Of a stretch of 64,000 nt of DNA, positions 39,083-52,147 are shown piece after piece. The stretch lies in the NCBI GenBank assembly GCA_965250285.1, contig OZ252299.1, forward strand, positions 3,584,001-3,648,000, in the 5' to 3' direction. This DNA comes from Myxococcota bacterium. Lineage in GTDB: Bacteria; Myxococcota_A; UBA9160; UBA4427. Numbering within the stretch: the first letter of the stretch is position 1; every line of letters starts with the position of its first letter. A program made the position numbers and the translations under genes. Under the pieces are notes generated by a model, which was not told the origin of the DNA, ran no database searches, and was given only the letters and a program-made list of their open reading frames with translations.

Positions 39083-39553
39083 TCAGAGACCGAGATCGGA
39101 CAGCGAGGGATGGTCGGCCGGCCGCGTAGGCGTCGTCCAAAGAAACTTGCGATCGGAAGCTTCGATCGGAAGATCGTTGATGCTGGCAATGCGTCGCATC
39201 ATGAGGCCGTTCTCGGCGAACTCCCAGTTCTCGTTGCCGTAGGACCGATACCACTGGCCCGTGTCGTCGTGGCATTCGTACGCGAAGCGCACGGCGATGC
39301 GGTTGCCGCCGAACGTCCACAGCTCTTTGACCAGTCGGTAGTCGAGCTCGCGTGCCCACTTGCGGCGCAGAAACTCAGCGATCTCGACTCGACCGGCGAT
39401 GAACTCTGCACGGTTGCGCCACGACGAATCGGAGGTGTATGCGAGCGCGACCTTGTCGGGATCCTGGCCGTTCCAGGCGTCTTCGGCCATGCGCACCTTC
39501 TGCTGTGCACTCTCGAAGTCGAAAGGGGGAAAGGGAGGTTTCGGCTGATCCAT
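39083..39553 (-). CDS. DUF1348-family (SnoaL-like) protein
   Basis: PPFPPF...[10 protein letters not shown]...[10 protein letters not shown]...[12 protein letters not shown]. Confidence 0.92.
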
Positions 39554-39723
39554 GCGCTCCATTCCTTGGGTCGGCGACGATTCTTGGACGCTCGGCCCGG
39601 ACGGGTCGTTTCGTGTGCGCCCCGCGCGACCGGACCGAAGGGCGGCGTCGGGGGCTCAGGCCGCATGCAGGGCGCCGGGGCCGCTCAGATCGCAGCGGGT
39701 GAGAAGAGATCGTCGAGCATGCC

Positions 39724-40776
39724 CTATGCGCCTCGGGGCGCGATCTGCAGCGAGGCAACCCGCCCGTCTTCGAGACCGGCCACGAGCCAAGCGCCATCGG
39801 GTGACCAGGCGAGCGCCGAGACGGCCGCGCCCTGACCGGGTCGGCCCGTGATCGCATCGCCGTCGATGTCACAGATCAGCACCGTGCCGTTGGAATAGCC
39901 CACCGCGAGGGTCCGTTCGCTGGGATGAGCAGAGATCTGCGTGACCACGGCGCCATAGGCGTACCCACACTCGTCGGGCATGCGGCCCGACGGCCCATCC
40001 CCCCGACAATCCCAGGCCGTCGCGACCTCGGCGCCGCTGGCAGCAAAGAATGCCCCGTCGTGGGTCCACGCGATGGAGCGCGACTTCGAGAGGAACCCGG
40101 CCATCCGCATGTCCTTGCCGTCGGCAAGGCGCCAGCAATGAAGCTCTTTGTCCTGCATCGCCGAGGCGACGAGCCGTCCATCGGGGCTCCAGGCCACGGC
40201 GATGTGCGAGCCGTGCCACTCGAGACGTCTTGGTACGTCCAGGGTGTCGACCTGCCAAATCGAGACACCCCCGTAGTGGGCGACGGCGAGTCGTCGCGCG
40301 TCCGGAGAAAAGGAGAGCCCTGCGATCGTGCTCGGATGATCCTCGAAGCACGCGACGATGCGACCGCCGGCGTCGACGATGCGAGCGCTGCTGCCCGTTG
40401 CGAATGCGCAGACGCCTCGAGCCGAGCCCACGAGATGCTCGATCCACCCATCGTTCTGCTCATAGACCGTCTCTGCGGCCGAGCCAGTCAGCCGAAGCAC
40501 GCGCCCGTCATCCGTGCCGAACAGCGTCGCTCCACCTGCACCCGGCGCCGCGCACAGGGGCATCGCACCGAGCATCGAGACCTTCTTCGCGCTCGCAGTT
40601 CCCCGAACGCTCCAAACAGCACCTGCTCCCGTGCCGACGAGCGCCTCGTTCGAATCCCCGACGAAACACACCACGAGGGGAAACCCGTCGACGGCGTGCT
40701 CGCTGAGGCGAATGCGATCGGATACGACGCGCGCACCCGCGTCGGGCGAGACACCCGGTGCGGCTGAAACGCTCAT
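39724..40776 (-). CDS. WD40-repeat beta-propeller protein
   Basis: Repeated H....LSFSPD / AWSPDG units; ATGA-coupled to the upstream COG0523 gene. Confidence 0.85.
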
Positions 40777-41753
40777 TGAATCTGCGTACATGCAAGGAAG
40801 TCCTTCTCGAGGGCGATCGGATCGAGATCGCGACCGATGAAGACGAGGCGACTCGCGCGAGGCGTGTCGGCCCAGGGCGCGCCCCACGCGCTGTCCATCA
40901 CCATGTGTACGCCCTGGAAGACGTATCGACGCTCGTGGTCGGCGACGTCCAGGATCCCCTTCGAGCGCAACACGTCGACGCCGCGCTCCATGATGAAACC
41001 GCGGATCCATTCGGAGAACTTCTCGGGGCTGACCGGCGCCGTGGCGGTGATCGAGACACTCTGGATCGACTGATCGTGCTCATGGTCGTCCTCACCCTGC
41101 AAGAGGTCGGGCTCGATCTCGAGAATGCGTCCCAGATCGAATGCGCCGCAGCCCAGCACCTGGTCAAGGTCGATGTTGCTCTCGACGGTCGGATGAATGC
41201 GCGCGAAGCGATTCAAGCTGCGCACTCTCTCCGTCACCTTGACGGCCTGAGTCGAGTCGACCAGATCGGACTTGTTCAGCAGCAGCACATCGGCGAATGC
41301 GACCTGTTCGGCGGCCTCGTGCTCGGTCTCGACGCAATCGAGGAAATGGCGCGAATCGACCACAGTGACCACGGCGTCGAGATGAACCTTCTCTCGAACC
41401 TCTTCGTCGACGAAGAACGTCTGCACCACGGGCGCCGGGTCGGCCAGCCCCGTGGTCTCGATGATGATGCCGTCGAAACCCTCGGCGCGTTTGATGAGCG
41501 TCGAGATGATGCGAATCAGATCGCCTCGCACGGTGCAGCAGATGCAGCCGTTGTTCATCTCGAAGATCTCTTCGTCGGCCCCGACGACGAGCTCGTTGTC
41601 GATGCCCACTTCGCCAAACTCGTTGACGATCACGGCGTATCGCTTTCCGTGCTGCTCGTTCAGGATCCGATTCAGGAGCGTCGTCTTGCCCGCGCCCAGA
41701 TAGCCTGTGATGAGCGTGACGGGAATCTTGGCTCGTGCGTTCATGTCTGGCAC
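40773..41753 (-). CDS. COG0523/CobW-family G3E metallochaperone GTPase
   Basis: [36 protein letters not shown] and a CobW_C domain. Confidence 0.93.
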
Positions 41754-41887: not shown

Positions 41888-42805
41888 CTACGAGATCGCC
41901 GCTTCGACCTCCGGCTCGACGGCTGCTTGCAGATCGGGAGCTTCGAGGTCTTCTCCCGGCCGTACGACCGGCGGATGGCGGGGGTCATAGCTGGGCGACG
42001 CCAGCTCCTCTGCAAACTTGGCGGACCGATTCACGAGAAACTCGATCAAGTGGTTGCGAAGCGGGTAGTAGTTCGGGTCGTGGTGCATGTCGTGTCGCGT
42101 GCGTTTCGGCGAAAGCGTATTGCCGACGAACTCACACACACGCGCATCCGGGCCATTCGTCATCAACACGATCTGATCGGACAGGAGAATGGCCTCGTCG
42201 ATGTCATGCGTGATCATGAAGACCGTCTGTTTCGTCTCGGCACAGATCGTCAGCAGCTCCTCCTGCAACGCAGTGCGCGTGAGAGCATCGAGCGCGCTGA
42301 ACGGCTCGTCGAGCAGCATGATCTGCGGCTCGATCGACATCGCGCGGGCGATCCCGACCCGCTGTTTCATGCCGCCCGAGAGCTGGGCCGGCCGTTTGTC
42401 CTCGGATCCCGTCAGACGAACCAGATCGATGTACTTCTGAGTGTGCTCGCGAATCTGGTCCTTGCCCCAGTCGGGGTGCCTCGACTTCACGGCGAATGCG
42501 ATGTTCTCGCGCGCCGACATCCATGGCATGAGGGCATGGCTCTGGAAGACCACCGCGCGGTCGAGGCTCGGGCCGGAGATCTCCCGTCCACCGACCACGA
42601 CGCCGCCCGCACTCGGTTCGTCGAGACCGGCCAGGATGTTGAGGAGCGTCGTCTTGCCGCAGCCCGAGTGCCCGATGAGACACTTGAATTCACCCGGCTC
42701 GACGGTGAACCACACATCCTCGAAGATCGCGACTTCTCCGTCGCCGTCGACCGCCGGAAACCGCTTGGCGAGCCCCTCGACGCTGATACTCGCTTGAAGG
42801 CTCAT
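41888..42805 (-). CDS. cynD: Cyanate/nitrate ABC transporter ATP-binding subunit
   Basis: GHSGCGKT, LSGGMKQRV, LDEPFSALD and ITHDIDEA motifs; in an operon with cynS. Confidence 0.85.
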   Translation of the reverse strand: MSLQASISVEGLAKRFPAVDGDGEVAIFEDVWFTVEPGEFKCLIGHSGCGKTTLLNILAGLDEPSAGGVVVGGREISGPSLDRAVVFQSHALMPWMSARENIAFAVKSRHPDWGKDQIREHTQKYIDLVRLTGSEDKRPAQLSGGMKQRVGIARAMSIEPQIMLLDEPFSALDALTRTALQEELLTICAETKQTVFMITHDIDEAILLSDQIVLMTNGPDARVCEFVGNTLSPKRTRHDMHHDPNYYPLRNHLIEFLVNRSAKFAEELASPSYDPRHPPVVRPGEDLEAPDLQAAVEPEVEAAIS

Positions 42806-42826: not shown

Positions 42827-43663
42827 CTACTCCTCATAGGTCACGAAGCCGGCCACGTAGCCGAGAGACAGGTCGAGAACCATGCCGATGACGCCGATGA
42901 ACAGGATCGCGGCGATGACGTTGGTGATCGACAGATTGTTCCACTCGTTCCAGACGAAGTATCCGATGCCCGTACCACCCACGAGCATCTCAGCCGCGAC
43001 GATGACGAGCCACGCGATCCCGATCGAGATGCGCATGCCGGTCATGATCGTTGGCGCGGCCGCCGGCAGAATCACCTTCACCGCCGTCCGCCAGGGGCTG
43101 ACCTCCAGGGTGCGGGCCACGTTGATCCACTCTCGGCGCACCGAGGCGACCCCGAAGGCGGTGTTCAGCAGCATCGGCCAGATCGAGCAGATGAAGATCA
43201 CGAACACCGACGAGAGGATCGAATCCTTGATCGTGTACAAGGCCAGTGGCATCCAGGCCAGCGGCGAGATCGGCTTCAGGACCTGAATGAATGGATCGAG
43301 GGCCCGGTACATCAGGGGTGACATACCCACGACGAACCCGAGTGGCACGGCGACGAGCACTGCCAGACCGAACCCGATCAGCACCCGAATGATCGAGAAG
43401 CCGAGCTGAATGCCGATGCCCTTGTCGTTCGGCCCAGCATCGTAGAAGGGGTCGGCGACGTGCTCCCAGACCTGCTTGCCGACCTCGAGCGGGCCGGGCA
43501 TGGCCGACGCACCTTTTGCCGTCGCGCCCATGAGCGCCGCGTACTCGGGATCCATCTCGACGGTCTCTTCTTTCGACCCGACCGATGCCTCCCAGATCAT
43601 CATCGAAACCACGAAGATGACGATCGAGAGTACGTACGCCTGCAGCTTGAGCGGAGAGCTCAC
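42827..43663 (-). CDS. cynB: Cyanate/nitrate ABC transporter permease (NrtB-like)
   Basis: PFYDAGPNDKGIG, LKPISPLAWMP and WLVIVAAEM motifs. Confidence 0.85.
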   Translation of the reverse strand: MSSPLKLQAYVLSIVIFVVSMMIWEASVGSKEETVEMDPEYAALMGATAKGASAMPGPLEVGKQVWEHVADPFYDAGPNDKGIGIQLGFSIIRVLIGFGLAVLVAVPLGFVVGMSPLMYRALDPFIQVLKPISPLAWMPLALYTIKDSILSSVFVIFICSIWPMLLNTAFGVASVRREWINVARTLEVSPWRTAVKVILPAAAPTIMTGMRISIGIAWLVIVAAEMLVGGTGIGYFVWNEWNNLSITNVIAAILFIGVIGMVLDLSLGYVAGFVTYEE

Positions 43664-43672
43664 GCCTCCCCC

Positions 43673-45262
43673 CTAGCTCCGCTTGATGTCGAAGCTCTCG
43701 ATGTACTCATCGGGCTTCGTCGGATCGAACCACTTGCCCATGATCTCGTAGGTCTCGTACGTCTTGGTCGGCGGCGTCGCATAGGGGCCTTCGAGCGCCA
43801 TCTCGGTCATGAGCTTCTGGGCGTCGGTTGCGAGGTACACCTGTTCCGCGACCTTCTGGTAGTCGATGTCTTCCTTGACATAGCCCCAGCGCTTCATCTG
43901 CGTGAGGATCCAGACCGCCATCGAGTTCCAGGGGAACGGGTCGAAGTCGATCCGATCGGGCACCCGTTTGATGTTGCCCAACCCGTCTGCGTACGTGCCC
44001 GTCAGCACCTGCTCCAGGACCGTGACGGGCTGATTCAGGTAGTTCTTCGGCGCGATCGCCTTGGATATCTCCTTGCGGTTCGATTTGATCGACGCGTAGT
44101 TCGTCGAATCCATGATCGACTTCCAGAGCGCCATGAACGTATTCGGGTTCTCGTTGATGAAGGCCTGACTCGCGGCGAACGCGCAGCACGGGTGCTTGTC
44201 CCAGATGTCCTTCGTCAGCAGATGAATGAAGCCGACACCGTCGTAGACCGCCCGCTGGTTGAAGGGATCAGGCGACAGGTACCCGTCGACGTTATCGGCG
44301 CGTAGGTTGGCGACCATCTCGGGCGGCGGCAGCACTCGGATCTGAATGTCGCGATCGGGGTCGAGACCATGTTCGGCGACGTAGTATCTCAGCAGGAAGT
44401 TGTGCATCGAGTACTCGAAGGGCACCGCAAACTTGAAGCCCTTCCACATCTTGGGATCGTTCTTGTCTTTGTGCTTGGTCGATAGGACGATCGCCTGCCC
44501 GTTGACGTTCTCGACCGCGGGCATGGTCCAGGGTGCGCTCGTCGAACCCGCACCGAGCGTGATCGCCAGCGGCATGGGTGTCAGCATGTGCGAGGCGTCG
44601 TACTCGCCTGACAGAGATTTGTCGCGGGAGACCGCCCAACCTGCGGTCTTGATCACTTCGACGTCCAACCCCCACTTCTTATAGAAGCCCATCGGGTGCG
44701 CCATGATGATCGGCGTCGCACAGGTAATGGGCACGAAGCCGACCTTGAGGTTCGTCTTCTCGAGCGCCCCCTTGTTTTCCATGGCAACGGCTTTCGCCTG
44801 TTCCAGCGGGAAGATCGAGCTGATTGCGGCCAGCGCCGTCCCCGACCCGACAGCGCGAAGAAAGCTACGGCGGCTGACGTCGGTCCCGAAGATGCCCTTC
44901 AGCACGGCTGACTCGACGCACCGCTCGAGCGCCGCATCCATGTCGTCGCCCGTGGGTTCGTCCGCTTCGCTCGCGAGCGACATGCTCGACGGGGCGTCGC
45001 CCGTGGCAGGGCACATGGGATCGACGCAGTCAGGATCGAGACATTCGGGCTGGCCCGCGAGCGACGCGCCCCCAGCAAACTTGATCTGTGGCGTAGGCGA
45101 GGCTCGGTCTGGCTTGACCTCTTCGCAGACGAATCTCGAAGCGGCATCCACCTCTCCCCCGGCCATCGCCATCTGATGCTCGATCAGCGAGCGGTGACGT
45201 CCACAGGGGCACCCGTTCCAGAGAAGCTTCTTGGGATCAAAGGGGTCGGCGTAGGCAGCCAC
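43673..45262 (-). CDS. cynA: CmpA/NrtA-family substrate-binding protein (cyanate)
   Basis: LKVGFVPITCATP, PFEYSMHNFLLRYY and PDPFNQRA motifs; Tat-like SRRSFL; GTG start after GGAGG. Confidence 0.85.
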   Translation of the reverse strand: MAAYADPFDPKKLLWNGCPCGRHRSLIEHQMAMAGGEVDAASRFVCEEVKPDRASPTPQIKFAGGASLAGQPECLDPDCVDPMCPATGDAPSSMSLASEADEPTGDDMDAALERCVESAVLKGIFGTDVSRRSFLRAVGSGTALAAISSIFPLEQAKAVAMENKGALEKTNLKVGFVPITCATPIIMAHPMGFYKKWGLDVEVIKTAGWAVSRDKSLSGEYDASHMLTPMPLAITLGAGSTSAPWTMPAVENVNGQAIVLSTKHKDKNDPKMWKGFKFAVPFEYSMHNFLLRYYVAEHGLDPDRDIQIRVLPPPEMVANLRADNVDGYLSPDPFNQRAVYDGVGFIHLLTKDIWDKHPCCAFAASQAFINENPNTFMALWKSIMDSTNYASIKSNRKEISKAIAPKNYLNQPVTVLEQVLTGTYADGLGNIKRVPDRIDFDPFPWNSMAVWILTQMKRWGYVKEDIDYQKVAEQVYLATDAQKLMTEMALEGPYATPPTKTYETYEIMGKWFDPTKPDEYIESFDIKRS

Positions 45263-45375
45263 GTTGTCGGATCCTCCTTGCACGTTCGACGTGCACAGTT
45301 CGACCGGTTCTGTCGGGCCGAGTCGGTCGGGGTCATTCGACCCGCTCCGTGCCTCTCAGCCCCTCTCGCCGTTGA

Positions 45376-45819
45376 CTACCAGTTTCGGTAGGGCAGGAAC
45401 TTGCCGTTGTACGTGATGACGACTCGATCGCCCTTCGGATCTTCTTCGCGTTGAATGTCGATCTCGAAGTCGATTGCACTCATGATCCCGTCGCCGAACA
45501 TCTCGTGGACGACCGCCTTCATCGATGTGCCGTAGACCTGCATGATCTCGTAGAAGCGATAGATCAGAGGATCGGTGGGGACCGATGCGTCGAGGCATCC
45601 CTTGAGCGGAAAGTCCTGGAAAGCCGATTCCGCCTCGGGAGACAAGCCGAGGAGCGCGGTGAGCTTCGACGCTTCGGCTTCGGGCATGCTCGCCTGACCC
45701 TCGATGGCAGCCGCGGCCCAGACCTTGTCGCACCCCACCGCCTCTCCGATCTGTTCGTACGTCAGCCCCTTCGCCTTCTTGGCCTCCAGCGCCAGCGTCT
45801 TCGCCTCCTGCTTGTCCAT
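45376..45819 (-). CDS. cynS: Cyanase (cyanate hydratase)
   Basis: PTDPLIYRFYEIMQVYG, FGDGIMSAIDF and GKFLPY motifs. Confidence 0.96.
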   Translation of the reverse strand: MDKQEAKTLALEAKKAKGLTYEQIGEAVGCDKVWAAAAIEGQASMPEAEASKLTALLGLSPEAESAFQDFPLKGCLDASVPTDPLIYRFYEIMQVYGTSMKAVVHEMFGDGIMSAIDFEIDIQREEDPKGDRVVITYNGKFLPYRNW

Positions 45820-45902
45820 GATCACGCCCTCCTCTTCGGTCAGATCGGTGCAGAGTGAGCACGCACACGACCGATTGAGTCGTCTCGCGCGCTCGTGCGC
45901 CG

Positions 45903-45949
45903 AAAAAAAGAAAGGGCGCAACTCTCCCGCATGGGAGAGAAGCGCCCTT
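45903..45949 (-). terminator. Intrinsic terminator (attenuator) in the cynS leader
   Basis: Minus strand AAGGGCGC-TT-CTCTCCC-ATGC-GGGAGAG-TT-GCGCCCTT followed by TCTTTTTTT. Confidence 0.85.
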
Positions 45950-45974
45950 GCCTCTCGACAGCCGTGTTGGCTGC
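45935..45974 (-). ncRNA. Putative ANTAR-binding dual-hairpin leader element
   Basis: Hairpin 1 is GCAGCC-AACAC-GGCTGT. Hairpin 2 is GAGAGGC-AAGGGC-GCTTCTCTC, with an A1/G4 hexaloop overlapping the 5' arm of the terminator. Confidence 0.65.
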
Positions 45975-45992
45975 GCCACTACAGGGCTTGGT

Positions 45993-46010
45993 AAGCACGG
46001 GTCGTGCCAA
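45993..46010 (-). promoter_or_regulatory. Sigma-54 (-24/-12) promoter of the cyn operon
   Basis: Minus strand TTGGCACGACCCGTGCTT, an exact GG-N10-GC match. Confidence 0.85.
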
Positions 46011-46468
46011 GTCGGAGGACCGCGCAGCCGGGCAGATGAGGTGCGTGGCAAACCAAGCCGAGTTGTGCAGGATCGGTACGCCAACGGCGGCGAACTGCAC
46101 GAAGCGAGTCGACCGAATGCCACGAAGCACGATCAGACGACGATCGCGGCAGGCTTTGTGCGCTGAACGTCGCGTGGCCCCATGCACAGCGATCTGGCAA
46201 CGCCTGCTCAGAAACCATGCCGATTCGAACAGCCGCCCACCCAACCGATCGCCCCAGCCGGTGCACTCGTGCTTGCAACCTCGATGAAGCGCGAGGCTTG
46301 CTTCTTGCATCGGTCGCCACGTTCAATGAACCGAGTGGACATCATCGAATCGACTTGGCCTTCGACTTCGGCCGAGAAACCGGCGAGCGCGATCCATCGA
46401 GTTCGCGACGAAGGCCAAGAACGAGCGGCACGTGCCGTTCGAATTCAAGACCTTCATGGAGGCGACGT

Positions 46469-47098
46469 GTGATCAGCGACGCGGTGACGCTTCGAGTCAT
46501 GTTGATCGACGACTGCGAAGAGCGAGCCGTAGAAGTCACGAGTCTCTTGGAATCTGCGGGGTGCGAGGTGGTAGCCATCGACTCGTCGACCGAGCATCTC
46601 GAACGGACCGTGGCCCGTGTTCGCCCCGACGTCTTGATCATCGAGCAAGAGGCGCCACGCCGCGACACGCTCGAGAGCATGCAGCGGCTGACGGAACAGA
46701 ACCCCTATCCGATCGTGATGTTTGTCGACGAGACCGACCCGGATGCGATTCGCACGGCCGTTCAGGCGGGTGTGGCGGCCTACGTCGTTCGGGGACTGAG
46801 CCCCGACCGTGTCCGGCCCGTGCTCGACGTCGCCATCGCTCGGTTCGAGGAGCATCGAAACCTGCTCGAGCGACAGCACGATCTCGAGCGAGAGCTCGAC
46901 CGCGCGCAGCAGCGCCTGACCGAGCGCCGAACCATCGACCGGGCCAAGGGCCTGCTGATGGACCACCACGGGTTGACCGAGCAGGCCGCCTACGACGCGA
47001 TGAGACGAATCTCGATGGAACGCAACCTCACGATGGGCGAGGTGGCCCGCATGACGATCGAGGCGTTGGCGAATCCCGGCCCACGACGCCGAGGATGA
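46469..47098 (+). CDS. nasT: NasT/AmiR-like receiver + ANTAR antiterminator
   Basis: PIVMFVD...AVQAGVAAYVV receiver-like domain, a coiled coil, and ERRTIDRAKGLLMDHHGLTEQAAYDAMRRISM ANTAR domain. Confidence 0.85.
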   Translation: MISDAVTLRVMLIDDCEERAVEVTSLLESAGCEVVAIDSSTEHLERTVARVRPDVLIIEQEAPRRDTLESMQRLTEQNPYPIVMFVDETDPDAIRTAVQAGVAAYVVRGLSPDRVRPVLDVAIARFEEHRNLLERQHDLERELDRAQQRLTERRTIDRAKGLLMDHHGLTEQAAYDAMRRISMERNLTMGEVARMTIEALANPGPRRRG

Positions 47099-50761: not shown

Positions 50762-51883
50762 CTATGCGGCCCTCGCCTCGCGCCGAACCATCCAGAGCGA
50801 AACGCCGCCCATGGCGAGAATCAGTAGCCCGAGCCCGAGCGGCAGCAGACTCGGCACGGCCGCAGGGCAGTCGGCGGGGCAGCCCGCTTCGCCGGGATCG
50901 CAGATGCCGTCCCCGCACACCGTGTTGAAGCTCACACACATCGAGGGCTGAATCTGTTCCGGAAGGCAGGCGATGCGCGTGCAGGCGGGTGTCTCACCGC
51001 ACGTGCAGTAGTTGCAGCCGTCGAACCACGAGTCGCAGGTGCCCGGGCACTCGACTCGGCAGTCGTAGCTGCAGCCGTCGCCGTTGGCGGTGTTGCCGTC
51101 GTCGCACTCCTCGCCCGGGTCGAGCACGCCGTTGCCGCAGGGTGAGCCGAACTCGAGGCACTCGGCCGGCTCGATCTCGTTGGGCGCACAGAAGCGCTTG
51201 GTGCAGGCGGGCACTACGCCGCACTGACAGGTGTTGCAACCGTCGAACCAGACGGCGCACGAGCCAGGGCAGAGCTCGATCTCGCAGTCGGCACTGCAGC
51301 CGTCGAAGCCGACGAGATTGCCGTCGTCGCACTCTTCGCCCAGCTCGACTTCGCCGTTGCCGCAGGCCGCGAAGTCGAGGCACTCGGCCGGTTGGATCTG
51401 GTCGGGTGCGCAGAACCGCTGCGTGCACGCGGGCACCTCACCGCACTGGCAGGTATTGCAGCCGTCGAACCAGACTTCGCACGAGTCGGGACAGAACTCG
51501 TCCTGACACTCGGCGCTGCAGCCATCAAAGTCGATCAGGTTGCCGTCGTCGCACTCCTCACCGAGCTCGACCTCGCCGTTGCCGCAGAGCGCGAAGTCGA
51601 GGCACTCGGCCGGCTCGAGATCAGCGGGCAAGCAGGCGCGCTTCGTGCAGGCCGGCACGTCGCCGCACAGGCACGTGTTGCAGCCGTCGAACCAGACCTC
51701 ACAGCTGTCGGGGCAGAACTCGTCCTGGCAGCTGGCGCTGCAGCCGTCGAAGTCGACGACGTTCCCGTCGTCGCATGCCTCACCGGCTTCGACCACGCCG
51801 TTGCCGCAGACGGCGTCGGCGGCGGAGGGAACCGCGGCGAAGAGAAGCAATGCGAGCGGGATCAAGAGGAGCGACCGGGCCAT
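50762..51883 (-). CDS. Cys-rich surface protein: 4 x (DUF4215/Myxococcus Cys-rich repeat + pacifastin-like module), IPTL-CTERM-like anchor
   Basis: Signal peptide; CGNG..E.GEECDDGN...DGCS..C alternating with C..WFDGCNTC.CG..PACT...C; C-terminal AVPSLLPLGLGLLILAMGGVSLWMVRR. Confidence 0.88.
   Translation of the reverse strand: MARSLLLIPLALLLFAAVPSAADAVCGNGVVEAGEACDDGNVVDFDGCSASCQDEFCPDSCEVWFDGCNTCLCGDVPACTKRACLPADLEPAECLDFALCGNGEVELGEECDDGNLIDFDGCSAECQDEFCPDSCEVWFDGCNTCQCGEVPACTQRFCAPDQIQPAECLDFAACGNGEVELGEECDDGNLVGFDGCSADCEIELCPGSCAVWFDGCNTCQCGVVPACTKRFCAPNEIEPAECLEFGSPCGNGVLDPGEECDDGNTANGDGCSYDCRVECPGTCDSWFDGCNYCTCGETPACTRIACLPEQIQPSMCVSFNTVCGDGICDPGEAGCPADCPAAVPSLLPLGLGLLILAMGGVSLWMVRREARAA
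50918..51808 (-). repeat. Four tandem ~222-bp intragenic repeats
   Basis: CG(N/D)G Cys codons begin at 51808, 51586, 51364, 51139 and 50917 (spacing 222/222/225/222). Confidence 0.9.
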
Positions 51884-52147
51884 GGGGCCTCCGCGAAGGG
51901 CTGGATCGGGCAGAGCCCCGATCGTTCTCGGCCCCGAAGGTCTCGGCGCCATCGCTCATTCTATCGGAATGCAGCCGCCCGAGCCGAAGGATCATCATCT
52001 CTGACGCAGCGGAGTGTCGTGATGCGGATCGCGCTGGCAGCTCAGCTGATCCTTTGTGGTGTCACTGGAAACCCGATGTGTCGTTCGCGGCTGCTCGGCG
52101 AGGGCCGCGCTCGGTCTCGCGCACGCCGAAGCAGGCATGAGCGCAGG

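What the first reader, a model, noticed from the sequence alone, without database searches (positions are those of the whole stretch)
45820..47098. Two-layer control of a cyanate operon: sigma-54 promoter plus ANTAR-type attenuator, with a divergent NasT-like gene
Seen on the minus strand, in order: a canonical TGGCAC-N5-GTGC promoter, two small hairpins, and a strong terminator with a U-tract ahead of cynS. The second hairpin's AAGGGC loop is also the 5' arm of the terminator, so the two structures are mutually exclusive. Known: ANTAR proteins (NasT, NasR, EutV, AmiR) antiterminate at dual hexaloop hairpins, while well-studied cyn operons use CynR (LysR) or NtcA. Inference: cyanate use here is under nitrogen (RpoN) plus RNA antitermination control. 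Caveat: hairpin 1 has a 5-nt loop without the usual G4.
Basis: partly seen in the sequence, partly recalled or inferred. Interest (0 to 1): 0.7.

Follow-up and report, generated by a model that had tools for sequence, protein, structure and literature searches.

The report
Cyanate operon with orphan RNA antiterminator
A cyanate-uptake and cyanase gene cluster carries a nitrogen-starvation-type promoter sequence and a predicted RNA stop switch, which is likely held open by the neighbouring regulator, an unusual copy of the nitrate regulator NasT that probably works without NasT's normal nitrate-sensing partner.

Summary
Upstream of cynS-cynABD lie a sigma-54 site, a hairpin with a 5-nt loop, an A1/G4 hexaloop hairpin (P2) and a terminator (-31 kcal/mol, z -6.4) whose 5' arm is P2's loop. 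Five of 8 cynS-bearing genomes in the class keep this leader, with compensatory changes. Three nitrate/nitrite leaders in this genome share the P2 loop. The 5-nt loop is real (three assemblies); that hairpin's loop is canonical in only 1 of 5 cyn leaders.

The divergent gene is not the canonical nasT, which sits elsewhere with nasS. It belongs to a small clade (11 clusters) with Glu at the receiver Asp position and a one-heptad insertion. Three of the four genomes carrying it lack a detectable nasS; in two it is the only ANTAR protein found. Likely mechanism: nitrogen limitation starts both divergent promoters, and this NasT paralog then permits read-through without nitrate sensing (inferred, untested).

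Sigma-54 control of cyn genes and ANTAR attenuation are each published; my searches found no paper joining them. This scan earlier noted ANTAR attenuators before Nitrospira cynS. Verdict: new variant of a known kind.

The parts
45995..46009 (-). sigma-54 (-24/-12) promoter of the cyn operon; predicted +1 near 45983
   Evidence: matching site at the same spacing (60-65 nt to P2) in 4 relatives; rpoN present
45958..45974 (-). hairpin 1: 6-bp stem, non-canonical 5-nt loop; stem kept but loop variable in relatives
45937..45956 (-). hairpin P2 with A1/G4 hexaloop, the predicted ANTAR-binding antiterminator
45903..45949 (-). intrinsic terminator (stem 45949-45912, U-tract 45911-45903); its 5' arm is the P2 loop
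46183..46221 (.). NtrC-type palindrome TGC-N11-GCA (46183-46199) and an imperfect second copy (46205-46221) between the two divergent promoters; likely activator sites
46294..46309 (+). divergent sigma-54-like site ahead of the NasT paralog
   Evidence: matching sites in G007, G054, G056 and ahead of DUF1348 in G059
46469..47098 (+). NasT paralog ('NasT2'): REC + coiled coil + ANTAR, 209 aa, Glu59 at the receiver Asp position, 7-residue coiled-coil insertion
45376..45819 (-). cynS, cyanase
43673..45283 (-). cynA-like NrtA/CmpA-family binding protein with a long Cys/His-containing N-terminal extension
42827..43663 (-). cynB-like ABC permease
41888..42805 (-). cynD-like ABC ATPase
39724..41753 (-). 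CobW-family GTPase and WD40 protein, co-oriented behind cynD; co-transcription not shown
39083..39562 (-). DUF1348 (SnoaL/NTF2-like) gene, repeatedly found beside cynS

Best explanation
The cynS-cynABD leader carries a sigma-54 site and an overlapping hexaloop/terminator pair that likely acts as a default-off ANTAR attenuator, probably opened by the divergently encoded NasT paralog without the nitrate sensor NasS. Shown by sequence and comparison: the elements, their mutual exclusion in folding, their conservation, and the paralog's distinct clade. Inferred steps: (1) under nitrogen limitation an NtrC-type activator at the shared palindromes starts both divergent sigma-54 promoters; (2) cyn transcripts stop near 45903 until the paralog has built up; (3) a paralog dimer binds G4 of P2 in the nascent RNA and blocks terminator closure, so cynS and the transporter are transcribed. 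This forms a feed-forward gate reporting sustained nitrogen starvation, not cyanate or nitrate. Hairpin 1 is likely structural or a weak site. In this genome canonical NasT may add nitrate-dependent read-through.
For: Leader kept in 5 of 8 cynS-bearing genomes of 225 in the class. Across 8 leaders (5 cyn, 3 nrtA) the terminator base is 98% paired and P2 87.5%, with double-sided changes, 0 of 500 shuffles on cells paired. G044 has no ANTAR gene found and no attenuator. All 11 clade members have Glu-Gln plus the insertion; 0 of the other 109 listed hits have the insertion; one side of a branch, 96/79. All 4 members of known context lie divergent from cynS. A NasS profile scores 645-661 bits only in G000 and G059; the best in G007, G054 and G056 are 318-426 bits and are NrtA. 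In G054 and G056 the paralog is the only ANTAR protein found, and G056's nitrate locus has lost nasTS and its attenuators. G054 has two more P2-terminator leaders ahead of other ABC-type loci, so its regulon is likely wider than cyanate. Residues aligning with EutV's G4-contacting Arg, Lys, Glu, Tyr and with Met172 are kept. TGC-N11-GCA occurs 13 times in 13 upstream regions against 1.0 expected; a similar promoter-plus-palindrome pair precedes 1 of 4 ammonium transporter genes.
Against: No expression or binding data. This genome's nirB, nrtA and globin leaders share the loop AAGGGC, so an unregulated paralog could bypass nitrate control, yet nasS is kept here. G059 keeps the attenuator without the paralog and has NasT-NasS. 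The nasS-lacking genomes are 91-96% complete MAGs and are kin, not independent. Asp-to-Glu need not mimic phosphorylation: the clade mostly lacks the receiver Lys, and NasT is known to be controlled by sequestration (PMC3795266). The NtrC-like gene scores 519 bits, under the 558.6 cut-off. The palindrome was first spotted in the regions it was counted in, against whole-genome background. In P. putida, mutating either hexaloop lowers expression (PMC10783516), and hairpin 1 lacks G4.
Confidence: 0.55

Rival explanations
1. The attenuator belongs to the nitrate regulon: NasS holds canonical NasT, and perhaps the paralog too, so cyanate genes are induced by nitrate or nitrite.
For: The P2 loop is identical in the cyn, nirB, nrtA and globin leaders of this genome. 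nasT-nasS-nrtABCD is intact. G059 keeps the cyn attenuator with NasT-NasS as its only ANTAR system found.
Against: G007, G054 and G056 keep paralog and attenuator with no nasS found. G166 has NasT-NasS but a cyn operon with no attenuator. The paralog has been kept as a separate clade beside cynS.
Confidence: 0.2
2. The paralog is held by its own sensor that responds to cyanate or carbamate. The best candidate is DUF1348, encoded directly behind it in relatives.
For: DUF1348 follows the paralog on the same strand in G054 and G056, and as a truncated remnant in G007. A dedicated sensor would avoid short-circuiting nitrate control here. NasT and AmiR are both controlled by sequestration (PMC3795266, PMC12591593). 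Cyn operons elsewhere are cyanate-induced (PMC6627978).
Against: DUF1348 sits by cynS also where no NasT is adjacent: G044, G166, and an Agrobacterium cynR-cynT-cynS locus; 14 of 84 cynS loci have it but only 2 of those have NasT. It occurs in 41 of 225 class genomes, most without cynS. It is truncated in G007. G054's other leaders point to a regulon wider than cyanate.
Confidence: 0.15
3. The terminator is a fixed, leaky attenuator or a decayed ANTAR site; the divergent gene acts elsewhere or not at all.
For: Hairpin 1 lacks the hexaloop and G4 in 4 of 5 cyn leaders, and its linker to P2 here is 1 nt, whereas a 3-nt linker cut induction at eutP (PMC3369931). G007's P2 has G in place of A1.
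Against: G4 and the P2 stem are kept in 5 of 5 cyn leaders, with compensatory changes. The attenuator is absent from the one cynABDS genome with no ANTAR gene found (G044). A single hexaloop is the minimal ANTAR site (PMC8934654), and G007's nirB leader has room for only one.
Confidence: 0.08

Closest known systems
NasS-NasT antitermination of nitrate assimilation operons (Paracoccus PMC3795266; Pseudomonas putida NalA/nirBD PMC10783516; Bradyrhizobium PMC6759348)
   Same: REC-ANTAR protein (51% identical to this genome's canonical NasT), A1/G4 hexaloop overlapping an intrinsic terminator in a nitrogen-gene leader.
   Different: Target is a cyanase/cyanate-transport operon; the regulator is a separate clade with Asp-to-Glu and a heptad insertion, encoded divergently without nasS; only one canonical hexaloop.
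EutV/eut leaders and the general ANTAR dual-hairpin motif (PMC3369931, PMC8934654)
   Same: P2 overlaps the terminator's 5' arm; C-G closing pair; G4; RNA-contact residues kept.
   Different: No cognate kinase gene beside it, no Asp acceptor, upstream hairpin has a 5-nt loop and a 1-nt linker.
cynFABDS of Pseudomonas pseudoalcaligenes CECT5344 (PMC6627978)
   Same: Cyanase plus CynABD transporter behind a predicted sigma-54 promoter, with a divergent regulator gene.
   Different: The divergent regulator there is CynF, a sigma-54 activator needed for cyanate induction; here it is an RNA-binding antiterminator. Gene order here is cynS first. The word 'terminator' has 0 occurrences in that paper's main text.
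ANTAR-type attenuators ahead of nrtA-cynS in Nitrospira
   Same: ANTAR-type hairpin/terminator switch ahead of a cyanase operon.
   Different: Those are described as two attenuators in series after glnA; here there is one attenuator and a dedicated divergent NasT paralog.

Membership tests
ANTAR target RNA | Hexaloop hairpin with A1 and G4 overlapping the 5' arm of an intrinsic terminator (P2) | tested here: met
ANTAR target RNA | Second, upstream A1/G4 hexaloop (P1) 5-12 nt from P2 | tested here: not met
   5-nt loop, 1-nt linker; canonical loop in 1 of 5 cyn leaders. A weak A1/G4 hexaloop at +4 to +9 has pair probability 0.0 against hairpin 1. Fits the single-hexaloop minimal site of PMC8934654, not the classical dual motif.
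ANTAR target RNA | Protein-dependent read-through | not testable with these tools
   needs in vitro transcription or reporters
NasT (NasS-NasT system) | REC + ANTAR architecture with RNA-contact residues | tested here: met
NasT (NasS-NasT system) | Encoded with a cytoplasmic NrtA-like sensor nasS | tested here: not met
   no nasS beside it in 4 of 4 loci; none found in 3 of 4 genomes
NasT (NasS-NasT system) | Sequestered by NasS and released by nitrate/nitrite | not testable with these tools
   needs pull-down or two-hybrid assay
Phosphorylated REC-ANTAR (EutV, Rv1626) | Phospho-acceptor Asp | tested here: not met
   Glu59 aligns with the Asp of 6wsh and 1s8n; Glu in 11 of 11 clade members
Sigma-54/NtrC-type promoter | -24/-12 GG-N10-GC element, rpoN in the genome, upstream activator palindromes | tested here: met
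Sigma-54/NtrC-type promoter | The activator is NtrC | tested here: inconclusive
   best NtrC-like gene lies behind an NtrB-like kinase but scores under the family cut-off; several other activators exist
CynR- or CynF-type cyn operon | Adjacent LysR (CynR) or sigma-54 activator (CynF) gene | tested here: not met
   the adjacent regulator is REC-ANTAR; the nearest LysR gene is 8 kb away, divergent from a short-chain dehydrogenase

The most novel reading that the evidence does not exclude
The Glu/heptad-insertion NasT clade is a dedicated cyanate regulator: a REC-ANTAR protein that has traded the nitrate sensor NasS for a new partner, most plausibly the uncharacterised DUF1348 protein encoded behind it, giving cyanate-sensing RNA antitermination through a single hexaloop and a function for DUF1348.
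Probability: 0.12. Interest if true: 0.75.

Novelty: new variant of a known kind. Interest (0 to 1): 0.45.

Why it matters
It adds cyanate use to the ANTAR-controlled nitrogen pathways and offers a natural series for two open points. One is whether a single hexaloop is enough for antitermination in vivo. The other is how REC-ANTAR proteins are controlled when they have neither a phospho-acceptor nor NasS. Relatives show most combinations (sigma-54 only; attenuator with NasT-NasS; attenuator with the orphan paralog as the only ANTAR protein found), so the test is a simple reporter in a laboratory strain. The mechanism class itself is known.

Tried and rejected
Assembly error in hairpin 1: rejected. 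Rfam: 2 chance-level matches only. The simple terminator scan missed the element. An alternative P1 (A1/G4 hexaloop at +4 to +9, also seen in G054) was considered; it is outcompeted in folding and absent in 3 of 5 leaders. Complex prediction of the paralog with this genome's NasS gave no answer (score 0.00, controls not folded). No RNA holder was listed for the stretch. A metagenome scan with the clade alignment returned 80 ordinary NasT loci, 0 with Glu-Gln and 0 with cynS in the DNA held; many contigs were short, and my script's insertion label for those loci was unreliable and is not used. The covariance model found the element above E 1e-3 in 3 of the 80 cynS loci, all among its training sequences, and in 0 of 4 plasmid loci; flanks were 3-6 kb, so leaders ahead of cynA were often out of reach. 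The model also missed the nirB leaders, so its blanks are weak. An IUPAC pattern search in 5 genomes was too noisy to count. Genomic context of 7 of the 11 clade members could not be fetched. G035's cynS contig is too short to judge. Literature searches showed no paper on ANTAR control of a cyn operon or on an orphan NasT clade; 7 supplements of PMC3369931 had 0 hits for cyanate, cyanase or cynS. The library lacks most subscription papers and preprint supplements.

Full report
Observation. The terminator is far beyond chance (z -6.42). Folding of nascent lengths shows the expected switch: P2 forms as soon as it is transcribed, persists for about 17 nt, and is replaced by the terminator, which is favoured by 14.3 kcal/mol. 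The genes are cynS, an NrtA/CmpA-family ABC transporter, a CobW GTPase, a WD40 protein and DUF1348 on the minus strand, and a REC-ANTAR gene on the plus strand. Two other genome records with the same layout are titled Myxococcota bacterium (L004, L006).

Internal controls. The genome holds 2 ANTAR genes. The other is a canonical nasT followed by nasS and nrtABCD, behind genes I read as nitrite and nitrate reductase from their sequences. The nirB, nrtA and a globin leader each carry P2 with the same loop as the cyn leader, overlapping a terminator. rpoN is present. An NtrC-like gene follows a kinase gene, though below the family cut-off. TGC-N11-GCA palindromes (NtrC consensus recalled) occur 13 times in 13 regions upstream of these promoters, in 10 of the 13 regions, against 1.0 expected; the motif was spotted in those regions, so this overstates. 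A genome-wide scan for promoter plus palindrome gave 19 hits, among them cynS, nirB, nasT, an ammonium transporter and a CP_ATPgrasp_2 gene; most others look like chance.

Relatives. cynS was found in 8 of 225 class genomes. Four (G000, G007, G054, G056) have the divergent paralog, two back-to-back sigma-54-type sites and the attenuator. G059 keeps the attenuator without the paralog. G044 and G166 have cynABDS order and no attenuator; G166 has a clear sigma-54 site and G044 a weaker one seen by eye. G035 cannot be judged. P2 lies 60-65 nt from the promoter in all five. On 8 aligned leaders (5 cyn, 3 nrtA) both alternative helices show double-sided changes and beat all slid controls; the structure was drawn from the window's sequence and the genomes are kin, so this is support, not a probability. 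G4 is kept in 5 of 5 cyn P2 loops and A1 in 4 of 5. Hairpin 1's stem is kept but its loop is canonical only in G054. The 5-nt loop is read identically in contigs of three runs from one study. G007's nirB leader has P2 at +15, with no room for a first hairpin. The EutV-RNA structure paper redefines the minimal site as one hexaloop (PMC8934654, passages). Against this, eutP needs both hairpins and a longer linker (PMC3369931, passages), and single-loop mutants lower P. putida nirBD expression (PMC10783516, passages).

The regulator. A profile of the four cyn-linked proteins ranks 11 clusters at 277-341 bits before a drop to 237 (four of the 11 built the profile). All 11 have Glu-Gln at the receiver Asp position and a 7-residue longer coiled coil. 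Of the other 109 listed, 100 have Asp, 2 Glu, 7 Ser or Ala, and none has the insertion. The 11 form one side of a branch (96/79), next to the two Glu-only proteins (99/97), in a tree of 55 rows: the top 45 hits and 10 family proteins. The predicted model is REC, one long helix (112-167) and ANTAR (pLDDT 81). Alignment to EutV and Rv1626 places Glu59 at the acceptor Asp and the insertion in the linker. A NasS profile finds NasS only in G000 and G059 among the 5 genomes searched. G054 and G056 have the paralog as sole ANTAR protein found. In G056 the nitrate locus runs from the reductase straight to nrtA, with no attenuator in either leader. G054 has two further P2-terminator leaders: one directly ahead of an ABC ATPase and NMT1-type binding protein, one ahead of a porin-like ORF near another such transporter.

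Mechanism. Best supported (0.55): nitrogen limitation starts both divergent promoters, and the paralog, free of NasS, then licenses read-through at P2, a feed-forward gate. That the leader is an ANTAR-type attenuator I put near 0.9, and that the paralog is its main partner near 0.75; NasS independence is the weak step. The strongest objection is that an unregulated paralog could also open this genome's nitrate leaders, which share the loop, while nasS is kept. This keeps two rivals alive: nitrate control through NasS (0.2) and a new sensor such as DUF1348 (0.15). A decayed switch is unlikely (0.08).

Comparison and novelty. It works like NasT antitermination (PMC3795266, PMC6759348, passages) but fails two defining tests: no nasS partner gene and no classical first hexaloop. 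A sigma-54 promoter on a cyn operon is published for P. pseudoalcaligenes, where the divergent gene is the activator CynF (PMC6627978, passages and Table 1), and cyanate lyase is listed among predicted sigma-54 targets (PMC12316311, passages). A 2025 review of ANTAR proteins has 0 occurrences of 'cyan' (PMC12591593). My searches showed no paper on ANTAR control of cyanate genes. This scan's earlier notes describe ANTAR attenuators ahead of nrtA-cynS in Nitrospira (not checked here), so the RNA layer on cyn genes may recur. The orphan Glu/heptad clade is the new part. Verdict: real, new variant of a known kind, interest 0.45.

Noticed in passing
window 39083-39562 (-); L216-L220, L255, L314, L315 and others: DUF1348 lies at the cyn locus in 7 of 8 cynS-bearing class genomes, and near cynS in 14 of 84 loci, including records titled as cyanobacteria, Polyangiaceae, Agrobacterium (cynR-cynT-cynS-DUF1348) and Novosphingobium. 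Likely an unrecognised accessory of cyanate metabolism, for example in carbamate handling (inference). A search for the name returned 3 papers, all fungal (listing only).
   Followed up: partly
G000:C1:2152982-2153063 (-) (L270): A further ANTAR-type leader in this genome, ahead of a globin gene followed by a NirB-like flavoprotein and a heme-motif protein.
   Followed up: partly
G007:C59 (L221); G056:C24 (L222); G054:C228 (L112): Stepwise loss of nitrate control in relatives: G007 has nasT directly before nrtA with no nasS; G056 and G054 have neither gene between the reductase and nrtA.
   Followed up: partly
window 44870-45283 (-): CynA has an N-terminal extension of about 135 residues with a Cys/His cluster ahead of a twin-arginine-like motif (motif recalled); relatives also have His/Cys-rich extensions. 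A CobW-family GTPase follows the operon, hinting at metal binding.
   Followed up: no
window 45867-45886 (-): A further predicted hairpin between the terminator and the cynS ribosome-binding site; not seen in the relatives' shorter spacers.
   Followed up: no
G054:C263 (L280): An NMT1-type ABC transporter followed by two genes that look like an OsmC-like and an acyl-CoA-dehydrogenase-like protein (recalled, not scanned), then a sigma-54-like site with an ANTAR leader ahead of a porin-like ORF.
   Followed up: no
window 50762-51952 (-): Secreted-type protein with DUF4215 cysteine-rich repeats alternating with pacifastin-like repeats and a hydrophobic C-terminal tail.
   Followed up: no
L102 (G065), L103 (G060): A further divergent REC-ANTAR group with neither nasS nor cynS in the DNA held, on a long branch.
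   Followed up: no
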